Source: Octopus vulgaris
Lineage: Eukaryota
DNA length: 64,000 bases
Direction: 5' to 3'
Assembly: GCA_951406725.2 (NCBI GenBank)
Contig: OX597842.1
Span: forward strand, 11,222,001 to 11,286,000
Shown here piece after piece: positions 42,908 through 46,040 of this stretch. The position numbers and the translations under genes were made by a program. How positions within the stretch are numbered: the first letter of the stretch is position 1; each line of letters starts with the position of its first letter. Under the pieces are notes generated by a model that was given only the letters and a program-made list of their open reading frames with translations, had not been told where the DNA came from and ran no database searches.

Positions 42908-43936
42908 TACACAGAAAAAAATAAGGAGAGAAAAAATGCGTGTAGGAGCTAACGATCTATCATGGCGTTCTGACTTCAGGCAGAGGTCAGAGGTCAGAGG
43001 TCAGACGTTAGAAGCTAGAGGGACAGTAGGGGAGATAACAGGGTCAAGTGACTTCCAAAACGAAGGTGACCCCAACACAAAGGTGCGTGTGTGTATAAGA
43101 GAGTATGTATGTGCGTGTGAAAGAGGGCGGGTGGTCTGGACGTGTGTATGTATGTGTGGGTGTGGAGATATGGGGATGGGTGTGTGGGTGGTGTGTTCTG
43201 ATGTGATATGTGTATGTATGTGTAGGTGTAAAGATGTGGGGATGGGTGTGTGGGCGTTGTGCTGTGGGTGGTGTGTTGTGATGCGATGTGTAATATATAT
43301 ATACATATGCACACGTACATACACATATTGATCGCTAGCTCCAAAATTTTTTTTTAAATTCTCTCTCTGTTTATTTTCTCGTTTTCCTTTCTGCTGGAGA
43401 ACGTAGGCTCGAAACGTAAAAGACTTTCTCACCTTCCCGAGCGTTAAACTAATACATATATTTGGGATTTATACACCTGTTTTCGTCTTTTGTTTTTCTG
43501 TAAAATTTCTATTATATATATATATATATATATATATATATATATATATATATATATATACAGGGTATTTGTATTTATAGCAATTTAATGCATCCCGTCG
43601 GTTTCCGAATATCAGTTCATGCAATTGATAAAACCGCATTATTTATGGGATGAACTATATATATATATATATATATATATATATATATATATATATATAT
43701 ATATATATATATATATATATATATATATATATATATATATATATATATATATACATATATATATAAAATAATAGTTATCGCCATACTAATATGGCATTCT
43801 TATAAAAATAAGAAAAAAGCTGTCCGCCTATTAGCTCCATGAGGCCATCGCCTTAAGTTAGCTATTTGATACACAAACTGTATCCATATAACCTTCGAAC
43901 AAGGGAGGTCAGTCGCTCCACACTACTTGACCGGCA

Positions 43937-43978
43937 GCTACAGACGCGTTTCGGGGTATTGCCCCTTTTCAATGCAGC
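43937..43978 (-). ncRNA. Type I hammerhead ribozyme, U3-A8 variant (inverted copy)
   Basis: Exact reverse complement of 44102-44143. Confidence 0.85.
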
Positions 43979-44101
43979 GTAGAGAGACTTAGTTATTTTA
44001 ATATTTCTATTATTGAAAACAAGTGGATGTATTCCACCGAAACTAGGTAAATAAAACCATCGAACAGAGATTGTCGGAAGCGACACCTACTGGCTGGCTA
44101 C

Positions 44102-44143
44102 GCTGCATTGAAAAGGGGCAATACCCCGAAACGCGTCTGTAGC
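44102..44143 (+). ncRNA. Type I hammerhead ribozyme, U3-A8 variant
   Basis: GCUGCA-UUGAAAA-GGGG-CAAUA-CCCC-GAAA-CGCG-UC/UGUAGC. Palindromic ACGCGU stem III; cleavage predicted after 44137. Confidence 0.87.
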
Positions 44144-46040
44144 TGCCGGTCAAGTAGTGTGGAGCGACTGACCTCCCTTGTTCGAAGGTTATATGGATAC
44201 AGTTTGTGTATCAAATAGCTAACTTAAGGCGATGGCCTCATGGAGCTAATAAGCGGACAGCTTTTTTCTTATTTTTATAAGAATGCCATATTAGTATGGC
44301 GATAACTATTATTTTCCGGGAACGCTGCCGCTGTTCTCTTTTAGAGAGACTTAGTTATTTTAATATTTCTATCATATATATATATATATATATATATATA
44401 TATATATATATATATATATATATATATATATATATATATATATATATATATATATATATATATATATATATATGTATATATATATATATTATATTAAATT
44501 AGAGATAAAACCACTATTAGGCAAATCATACAATGAAAAACTTAAGCCAATACATAAGATTAATTCATTTATATTATTTTAAATATATCAAAATTATTAA
44601 AAAAAGATAATTAGTATAACACTACGATCGTATATATATATATATATAATAATATAATGTAATATAGTATGATATAAATAACATATATAGGCATATATAC
44701 ATACATGTATGTACATACATTATTACGTATATATACACATGCATGTGTGGACACAGGACGTCACGAAACGTGTACAACAAAAAATACGAAGTAAAAGTAC
44801 AGCGAAAGACACGAATGGAAAACAAGACAAACAACATACAGAACGACCCTTCATCGGGTGTTGGCTGTTTTTCTAGTCTCGTATTTCGAGCATTTAACAA
44901 CAATATACGCTTTCGATAAAACAGTTGCTTCCGCAAAGTAAATTAAATAAAAGTTGGGATTTTGTGACGGGTCAAAATAGGTAACACAAACAGGACAGTG
45001 AAAACAAACAGGAAGGGCTGCTAAGCCTAAACGAGGGTGTGGGGGCATATATGTATGTATATATATATATATATATATATATATATATATATATATATAT
45101 ATATATATGTATGTATGTATATATGTATGTATATATATATATATATATATATATATATGTATATATATACATATATATATATATGTATGAATGTATGTAT
45201 TTATGTATATATATATATATATATATATATATATTTGTAGCGTCTGTTGCCGAAGAGAAGGTATCGTAGCTTTTTGCACCGCCATTTGTAACTCTGAGTA
45301 CTATAATGGCAACATTTTTTTTGTTTGTTCTAAATTATAACATATAAATATTCCTTTATTTCTCTAATATCGAGGTCTCATACATATATACATATATATA
45401 AATATATGTAGATGTGTATATATATATATGTGTGCGTGTGTGTAAATATGTATGTATGTGTGTGCATGTATGCATATATGTATGTGTATGTATGTACGTA
45501 CGTATGTATGTATATGTGAATCTCTGTGTATACACACATTAACACAGAGAAATCCTAATCGCCCTTATCATATTCTGTACATATACACACATTGTTTAGT
45601 ATCTTCCGCCATTTTTGGCCATTTACACACAAAAACTGAACAAAAACCCCCCAAAAAAAAACAAATAAACTAAATCTTCTAAATAACCGAAAAACGAACA
45701 AAAACCAAAACACAGCAAAAAACAAACATACAAATATAAACAAAATTTAAATAAATAAAATCGTAAAAACACAATTTAAATAAATTTAAATAAAATAAAA
45801 CTGGTTTTCTTTCGCGAATGAACGGCGGAGATTCTGGCAACGAAACCATTGCATGATGGGAAAACGCTGGTGTAAAACGATTGGTCGGCTTGGTGGTTCG
45901 CTATCCCATGATTCCGTGTGTAATTGATGGCGTTGGGTGAGTCAGCGTTGAATTAGTTCAGATGAAAACGACATCGGGACTTTGGAGACAATCAATCTTA
46001 ATTCTCGGCTGAAAAATTTATCGGCCGCCATCGCGATCGG

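What the first reader, a model, noticed from the sequence alone, without database searches (positions are those of the whole stretch)
43765..44372. Same architecture in an unrelated family, with complete ribozymes on both strands
Seen: 218-bp IR, 362-nt unit and 31-bp DR. Both arms hold the full 42-nt HHR (44102-44143 plus, 43937-43978 minus). Inference: a host transcript from either strand would contain a self-cleaving motif, but IR pairing could sequester it in a 218-bp duplex. That would be a kinetic switch and a likely ADAR substrate, and coleoids are known for heavy A-to-I editing.
Basis: partly seen in the sequence, partly recalled or inferred. Interest (0 to 1): 0.75.

Follow-up and report, generated by a model that had tools for sequence, protein, structure and literature searches.

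The report
Penelope-type retrozyme insertion, inverted arm
This is one copy of a very young, widespread small repeat that carries a hammerhead-ribozyme motif, and its mirror-image arms are likely the footprint left when a Penelope-type jumping-gene enzyme pasted it into a TA repeat, not a switch made for a host RNA.

Summary
In detail: 218-bp arms (217/218 identical), 362-nt unit, 31-bp direct repeat, the same 42-nt minimal type I hammerhead (U3-A8 core) on both strands. The locus is one copy of a very young dispersed family (41 listed full-length copies at 100% identity) that sits in (TA)n as partial tandems with an inverted, 5'-truncated arm. 70 of 71 outer ends fall at two sites 60 nt apart, and 29 of 31 two-armed insertions use one of each; an 80%-identical sister family and an RT/GIY-YIG Penelope-like family in the genome show the same two-end pattern. 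This is the published Penelope 'inverted pLTR plus tail' anatomy on a non-LTR retrozyme-like unit. The kinetic-switch reading fails: on either strand the blocking arm is made before the ribozyme, which never folds in the model, and each strand has only one, dimer-type motif. Editing of a read-through hairpin is plausible but not shown. What is of some value is the counted pairing of the two start sites, which fits two reverse transcriptases priming on one RNA.

The parts
43656..43764 (.). (TA)n tract, left part of the likely target
   Evidence: sequence; TA-rich flanks at most outer ends in the family
43765..43982 (-). Inverted, 5'-truncated arm: unit positions 119-336, outer end at the short start site B
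43937..43978 (-). Minimal type I hammerhead motif in the inverted arm
43980..43982 (.). Inversion junction, 3-nt overlap shared by both arms; the junction 30-mer occurs only here among the loci fetched
43980..44341 (+). One full 362-nt unit (phase set by this copy's truncation point)
   Evidence: folds as a circle at -121.9 kcal/mol, z -7.8 against 60 shuffles
44054..44191 (+). Predicted long rod with the ribozyme at its tip; 5' truncations of family members pile up at its 3' foot (unit 190-210)
44102..44143 (+). Minimal type I hammerhead motif, U3-A8 core, predicted cleavage between 44137 and 44138
   Evidence: variant described in PMC4209133
44316..44372 (+). 'Tail' between start site B (about 44312-44315) and start site A (44372-44375); present on this arm only
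44342..44372 (+). 31-nt direct repeat: the start of a second unit (partial tandem), ending at site A
44373..44489 (.). (TA)n tract, right part of the likely target

Best explanation
This is a single recent insertion of a 362-nt non-coding, hammerhead-bearing repeat that is likely copied in trans by a Penelope-like (RT plus GIY-YIG) protein, with the inverted repeat likely built at the moment of insertion. Shown: many identical dispersed copies; tandem units; two fixed outer ends 60 nt apart (the only two CTATTA motifs of the unit); one of each end in two-armed insertions; variable inner junctions; (TA)n flanks; copying runs through the ribozyme site. Inferred: the endonuclease nicks both strands of (TA)n; each nick primes reverse transcription on a longer-than-unit or circular RNA, one at site A and one at site B; both cDNAs stop early, often at the foot of the ribozyme rod, and are joined head to head by microhomology. 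The ribozyme likely serves the element (dimer- or protein-assisted cutting of tandem transcripts into monomers, perhaps circles). This copy has one motif per strand, so it would not release a monomer, and a read-through RNA would be an inert hairpin.
For: 41 listed full-length matches at the perfect score on many contigs, 1108 candidates. In 40 distinct insertions (44 loci, 4 dropped as duplicates): 70 of 71 3' ends in windows covering 6.6% of the unit; 31 two-armed, of which 29 A+B, 1 A+A, 1 A+other (binomial 29/30 against 0.5, P=6e-8). All 9 insertions with a B arm of 690 nt or more have an A partner, so the query's bias to A ends does not explain it. Sister family, 80% identical: 15 of 30 loci two-armed, 10 A+B, no A+A or B+B, 5 with an end outside the windows. 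An RT/GIY-YIG family with 16 open frames of 781 aa among 148 matches has two ends about 40 nt apart in (TA)n, the longer ending in CCTATTAT or CTTATTAT, one locus (L082) with one of each, and the same U3-A8 core in its repeat. 19 of 67 5' ends at unit 190-210 (3.9 expected; highest count in 5000 uniform simulations 16). 96 exact 20-mers span the cleavage site. Variants shared by both arms in L004, L042, L044 and by all five units of L043. Literature: two RT start sites bound the tail, both strands are cut and extended, dimer predicted (PMC11167929); inverted copy, tail at one end, TA targets (PMC8557442).
Against: No autonomous element with this unit as its terminal repeat was found: BLAST of the unit against 30 and 16 GIY-YIG loci hit only a separate sister-family insertion, so the helper is circumstantial. 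The tail (60 nt) is longer than the 30-40 nt in print. The A and B windows were set after seeing the data. The sample favours long, perfect copies; a search with the 218-nt arm alone returned nothing because of the tool's common-word filter. BLAST tiling classed L042 as one-armed (28 A+B) where exact tiling saw two arms. In the 596-nt family the rule is looser: 6 of 9 two-armed loci A+B only if ends at position 12 count as B, 1 B+B. Most variants are private to one repeat, so a monomer circle as template is not shown. No cleavage, circle or transcript was demonstrated.
Confidence: 0.8

Rival explanations
1. Same element, but the inverted arm arises by fold-back self-priming of one cDNA (or on an antisense template) and staggered endonuclease resolution at sites A and B, not by two primings on one RNA.
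For: Proposed for rotifer Penelope elements (PMC3846280, passages); tail ascribed to EN-mediated resolution in PMC8557442. Both ends share a CTATTAT motif that resembles an AT-rich cut site. Shared variants between arms fit as well. This locus alone fits: the short arm lies within the long one.
Against: In 10 of 29 A+B insertions the B arm reaches further 5' than the A arm (8 by more than 300 nt), so it cannot be a copy of the A arm; only 4 of 29 have offsets within 60 nt, as small fold-back loops would give. In vitro both target strands are extended from sense RNA (PMC11167929).
Confidence: 0.2
2. The copies are stubs of the terminal repeat of an autonomous Penelope-like element not yet found, and not a self-standing retrozyme-like unit.
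For: Truncated terminal stubs are the usual product of these elements (PMC8557442; bioRxiv 2026.07.22.740005); only 40 of 1108 candidates were scored.
Against: Up to five complete head-to-tail units in one arm, with the unit closed on itself; no tiled arm ran on into non-unit coding sequence in 40 insertions; the same closed unit persists in an 80%-identical sister family.
Confidence: 0.12
3. One reading: a host-transcript device in which a self-cleaving motif competes kinetically with a 218-bp duplex that ADAR edits.
For: The duplex would form. Transcripts starting inside the spacer fold the ribozyme stems (P about 0.99), so start-site choice could decide the fold. An older fragment of the family lies in an apparently expressed unique sequence elsewhere.
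Against: Antisense arm always precedes the motif; one dimer-type motif per strand. Insertion too young for conservation to speak (one mismatch between arms). Among 56 isolated substitutions in 42,053 aligned bases only 2 are A>G against 34 C>T or G>A, so templates were not hyper-edited. No host domain among 108 of 150 candidate frames.
Confidence: 0.06
4. The inverted arm is an assembly artefact (fold-back read).
For: One family locus (L009) has flanks that are themselves inverted repeats.
Against: Here the arms differ at one base, end at different fixed sites and have unrelated outer flanks; the same rule holds at 29 loci.
Confidence: 0.02

Closest known systems
Endonuclease-positive Penelope-like element insertions with inverted pLTR and tail (PMC8557442; PMC3846280; PMC11167929)
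   Same: Partial tandem, inverted 5'-truncated copy, tail on one end, two 3' ends, (TA)n target, type I hammerhead in the repeat.
   Different: No ORF; the unit is closed on itself and multimeric in both arms; tail 60 nt, not 30-40; both ends share a motif with microhomology to the target, where the anole element starts at non-homologous sites.
Metazoan non-LTR retrozymes (PMC7229834; bioRxiv 10.64898/2026.07.22.740005)
   Same: Non-coding tandem unit in the 350-390 nt range of mussel retrozymes, one type I hammerhead per unit, highly self-paired predicted circle, co-existing Penelope-like elements.
   Different: U3-A8 core of the kind listed for Penelope minimal motifs; inverted arms and tails are not described for retrozymes in those two papers (word searches); circRNA and cleavage not shown here; this copy has one motif per strand and so is not 'active' by the preprint's two-unit rule.
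Minimal Penelope hammerheads, U3-A8 variant (PMC4209133)
   Same: U3-A8 covariation, palindromic helix III, pairs on opposite strands 100-700 bp apart.
   Different: Helices I and II have the canonical sizes (6 and 4 bp) here.
L1 twin priming (recalled, no call)
   Same: Two primers from both target strands give an inverted 5' part joined by microhomology.
   Different: Both priming sites are fixed, only 60 nt apart, no poly(A), and both arms can exceed one unit.

Membership tests
Penelope-like element insertion (non-autonomous) | Partial tandem with inverted 5'-truncated copy | tested here: met
   31 of 40 insertions two-armed, tails out
Penelope-like element insertion (non-autonomous) | Optional tail between two 3' ends | tested here: met
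   70 of 71 ends at two sites 60 nt apart; longer than the published 30-40 nt
Penelope-like element insertion (non-autonomous) | AT-rich or microsatellite target | tested here: met
   flanks
Penelope-like element insertion (non-autonomous) | Sequence homology to the terminal repeat of an autonomous partner | tested here: inconclusive
   no BLAST match in 46 GIY-YIG loci (some overlapping) out of 6136 candidates; shared core and end motif only
Autonomous Penelope-like element | RT plus GIY-YIG ORF | tested here: not met
   no frame of 120 aa or more in the insertion; the 74-aa frame over it has no Pfam match
Non-LTR retrozyme | Tandem 150-400 nt non-coding units, each with a type I hammerhead | tested here: met
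   family level: 18 of 40 insertions hold two or more exact motifs on one strand; this copy holds one per strand
Non-LTR retrozyme | Self-cleavage of the transcript | not testable with these tools
   only structure, covariation and a predicted 6-bp dimer helix III (-8.9 kcal/mol)
Non-LTR retrozyme | Abundant circular RNA | tested here: inconclusive
   a 392-nt contig closing on itself in run X19; the run's RNA status is a guess, and a tandem gives the same contig
Type I hammerhead ribozyme | Catalytic core with C3-G8 or a covariant pair, three helices | tested here: met
   U3-A8 core, helices 6/4/1 bp, kept in the sister family; no Rfam hit
MITE / DNA transposon | Fixed terminal inverted repeats and fixed internal sequence | tested here: not met
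   arm lengths 25-1823 nt and a different junction at each locus

The most novel reading that the evidence does not exclude
A dimeric Penelope-like protein holds one retrozyme RNA and primes both nicked target strands at once, one active site at each end of the tail, so every two-armed insertion gets one long and one short end; the genome's young retrozyme families record this step at hundreds of loci and are direct footprints of retrozymes being moved by Penelope machinery.
Probability: 0.4. Interest if true: 0.58.

Novelty: new member of a known kind. Interest (0 to 1): 0.3.

Why it matters
As a locus it is ordinary: one of many recent copies. As a family it is useful: near-identical copies with two fixed ends give a counted rule (29 of 31 two-armed insertions pair one long with one short end) for a step of the Penelope cycle that is still open, and link a retrozyme-like unit to Penelope enzymes by insertion anatomy where the papers read argue from co-occurrence and sequence similarity. 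It also names a candidate helper with many intact frames for an in vitro test. Each two-armed copy is a potential long dsRNA, which may add to the repeat-derived editing load, but that is a side effect.

Tried and rejected
Rfam at gathering score: 0 hits in the window. tRNA scan 38000-46000: none; the promoter scan is bacterial and uninformative. Search with the 218-nt arm for a less biased sample: no candidates, filter effect. Sequencing runs: no RNA holder listed; 20 of 24 runs hold the stretch, RNA status only guessed. In four guessed-RNA runs the unit is covered by contigs, none of the listed pieces bridges the locus-specific inversion junction, and the two A>G rows come from contigs with 5-8 other differences; contigs show neither absence nor editing. 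Transcription of the flanks remains untested. L063/L090 looked like the autonomous parent but is a sister-family copy in the opposite orientation, separated from the element by a TA tract. A loose end seen in two runs maps to one unique site with an old 110-nt fragment, not to a parent. Pile-up of 5' ends at the cleavage site is weak (8 of 67 at 155-170, unadjusted P=0.009, none at 159). The last line of the script failed, so the count of pairs shared by independent folds was not obtained. A paper search for Penelope, twin priming, inverted, tail and retrotransposon together gave one unrelated review (listing only); the library lacks most subscription papers, including older Penelope structure papers, so the pairing rule may be in print.

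Full report
OBSERVATION. The arms are 43765-43982 and 44098-44315, 218 nt, 115 nt apart, with one mismatch. A 31-nt exact direct repeat lies 362 nt apart. Both arms hold the same 42-mer, a type I hammerhead motif with core TTGAAAA, 6-bp stem I, 4-bp stem II and palindromic ACGCGT at helix III. Rfam finds nothing in the window. The insertion lies between two (TA)n tracts.

FAMILY. The 362-nt unit has 1108 candidates in the 2.8-Gb genome; of 40 scored, 41 listed matches are full length at the perfect score. I tiled 44 loci (30, 14) and dropped 4 as duplicates, leaving 40 insertions. They differ from the unit by 56 isolated substitutions in 42,053 bases, 34 of them C>T or G>A and 2 A>G. Arms hold up to five units. 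31 of 40 are two-armed with 3' ends pointing out. 70 of 71 3' ends lie at unit 25-36 (site A) or 327-338 (site B), 60 nt apart, the only two CTATTA motifs of the unit. 29 of the 31 pair A with B; one is A+A (L009, whose flanks are themselves inverted) and one has an odd end. The query favours A-ended arms, but all 9 insertions with a B arm of 690 nt or more have an A partner. The windows were chosen after seeing the data; BLAST tiling gave 28, missing one arm. This locus is a B arm (119-336) joined by a 3-nt overlap to an A arm (1-362-31).

REPLICATES. A sister family, 80% identical with a 360-nt unit (2883 candidates), gave 10 A+B, no A+A or B+B and 5 unclassed among 15 two-armed loci of 30. 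It keeps U3-A8, swaps the closing pair of stem II and the helix III palindrome (ACATGT); 6 pairs are compensatory against 1.3 expected. The 596-nt family at 38745-39686 gave 6 A+B of 9 two-armed loci if ends at position 12 are read as B (my reading; the script classed 3), 1 B+B and 2 unclassed, from 21 of 25 loci.

HELPER. GIY-YIG matches number 148 among 150 scored, 16 in frames of 781 aa with RT and GIY-YIG domains and a CxxxxCxxC motif before the endonuclease, as described for Neptune and Nematis clades (PMC8557442). This family also ends at two sites about 40 nt apart in (TA)n, the longer one after CCTATTAT or CTTATTAT, has one locus with one end of each kind, and a U3-A8 hammerhead core in its repeat. 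BLAST shows no further similarity to the unit, so it is a candidate only.

MECHANISM. The unit folds as a long rod with the ribozyme at the tip. 19 of 67 5' ends fall at the 3' foot of that rod, as expected if reverse transcriptase stalls there (inference). 96 copies run through the cleavage site, so the template is uncut multimer or ligated circle. Both arms share variants in L004, L042 and L044; in L004 the pattern is in register with one multimeric RNA, though gene conversion could do the same. In 10 of 29 cases the B arm reaches further than the A arm, against fold-back copying. With the in vitro result that a Penelope protein cuts and extends both strands, starts at two sites bounding the tail and is a predicted dimer (PMC11167929), the simplest model is paired priming at A and B; that paper saw no strand difference in start site and does not report pairing.

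On both strands the antisense arm precedes the sense motif, whose stems have probability 0.000 in read-through folds and 0.98-0.999 when the RNA starts in the spacer at 43983 or 44040. So the hairpin is a constitutive block, not a race. Exact motifs on both strands occur in 12 of 40 insertions. No host protein domain passed a cut-off among 108 of 150 candidate frames; hits over E 1e-8 were LINE RT at 5.2-6.6 kb and a DDE fragment at 40.8 kb; short exons could be missed. Contigs of four guessed-RNA runs cover the unit, one closing on itself, and show no editing that can be read. Read-through transcription and editing stay open.

KNOWN SYSTEMS AND WHAT I READ. PMC4209133 (parts 1-2 of 4): U3-A8 variant, opposite-strand pairs, no monomer cleavage, low dimer cleavage. 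PMC8557442 and PMC3846280 (passages): inverted copy, tail at one end, TA targets, self-priming model. PMC11167929 (parts 1-2 of 4). PMC7229834 (passages, sections 14 and 17): mussel 350-390 nt retrozymes, Penelope proposed as mobiliser. bioRxiv 10.64898/2026.07.22.740005 (parts 1-3 of 5 and a word search; supplements not seen): retrozymes as non-autonomous Penelope derivatives, 1 of 9 dimers cleaved. PMC13282606 (passages): recently active Penelope-like families in an octopus genome; its supplement, not read, may already list this family. ADAR papers: search listing only. Earlier notes of this scan report the long-plus-short pairing in shark genomes and a similar element in this genome; they are unchecked and not counted as support; look-ups by sequence and place gave nothing.

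VERDICT. Real feature, new member of a known kind (non-autonomous Penelope-like element of the non-LTR retrozyme type). Interest 0.30, mostly for the counted end-pairing rule and the testable helper.

Noticed in passing
window 38745-39686: Second young family, 596-nt unit, long-stem-II hammerhead motif, 253-bp inverted arm, about 98-nt tail; 2005 candidates in the genome, copies 99-100% identical.
   Followed up: partly
unit position 344 (window 44323): This C differs in 7 of 120 passes with three different bases (A 3, G 3, T 1), unlike CpG decay; it lies inside the tail. Possibly a modified base or a re-priming point; unexplained.
   Followed up: partly
L075:406-4090: The 781-aa Penelope-like family has a separate upstream frame of about 350 aa with no Pfam match, starting just after the tail; either a second ORF or an intron-split N-terminus.
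   Followed up: no
L009:1467-2350: The only A+A insertion has flanks that are inverted repeats of each other for hundreds of bases; fold-back artefact or palindromic duplication.
   Followed up: partly
one search run list: Runs under 10 coded organism labels hold 94-100% of the sampled words; if these are distinct species the unit is near-identical across them. Labels could not be resolved.
   Followed up: no
L121:1535-1645: Old, about 110-nt two-armed fragment (A end and B end) in unique sequence that contigs of two guessed-RNA runs continue into.
   Followed up: partly
window 40020-40437: About 418-nt palindromic element, 90% self-complementary, next to TA repeats.
   Followed up: no
window 42793-42906, 43387-43495 and 52587: Further hammerhead-like repeat fragments of other families.
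   Followed up: no
window 5181-6565 and 40753-40956: Frameshifted LINE reverse transcriptase remnant and a DDE_3 transposase fragment.
   Followed up: no
L018 (G000:C12): Junction with repeated short strand switches between unit 280 and 244, three times over, as from repeated template switching.
   Followed up: no
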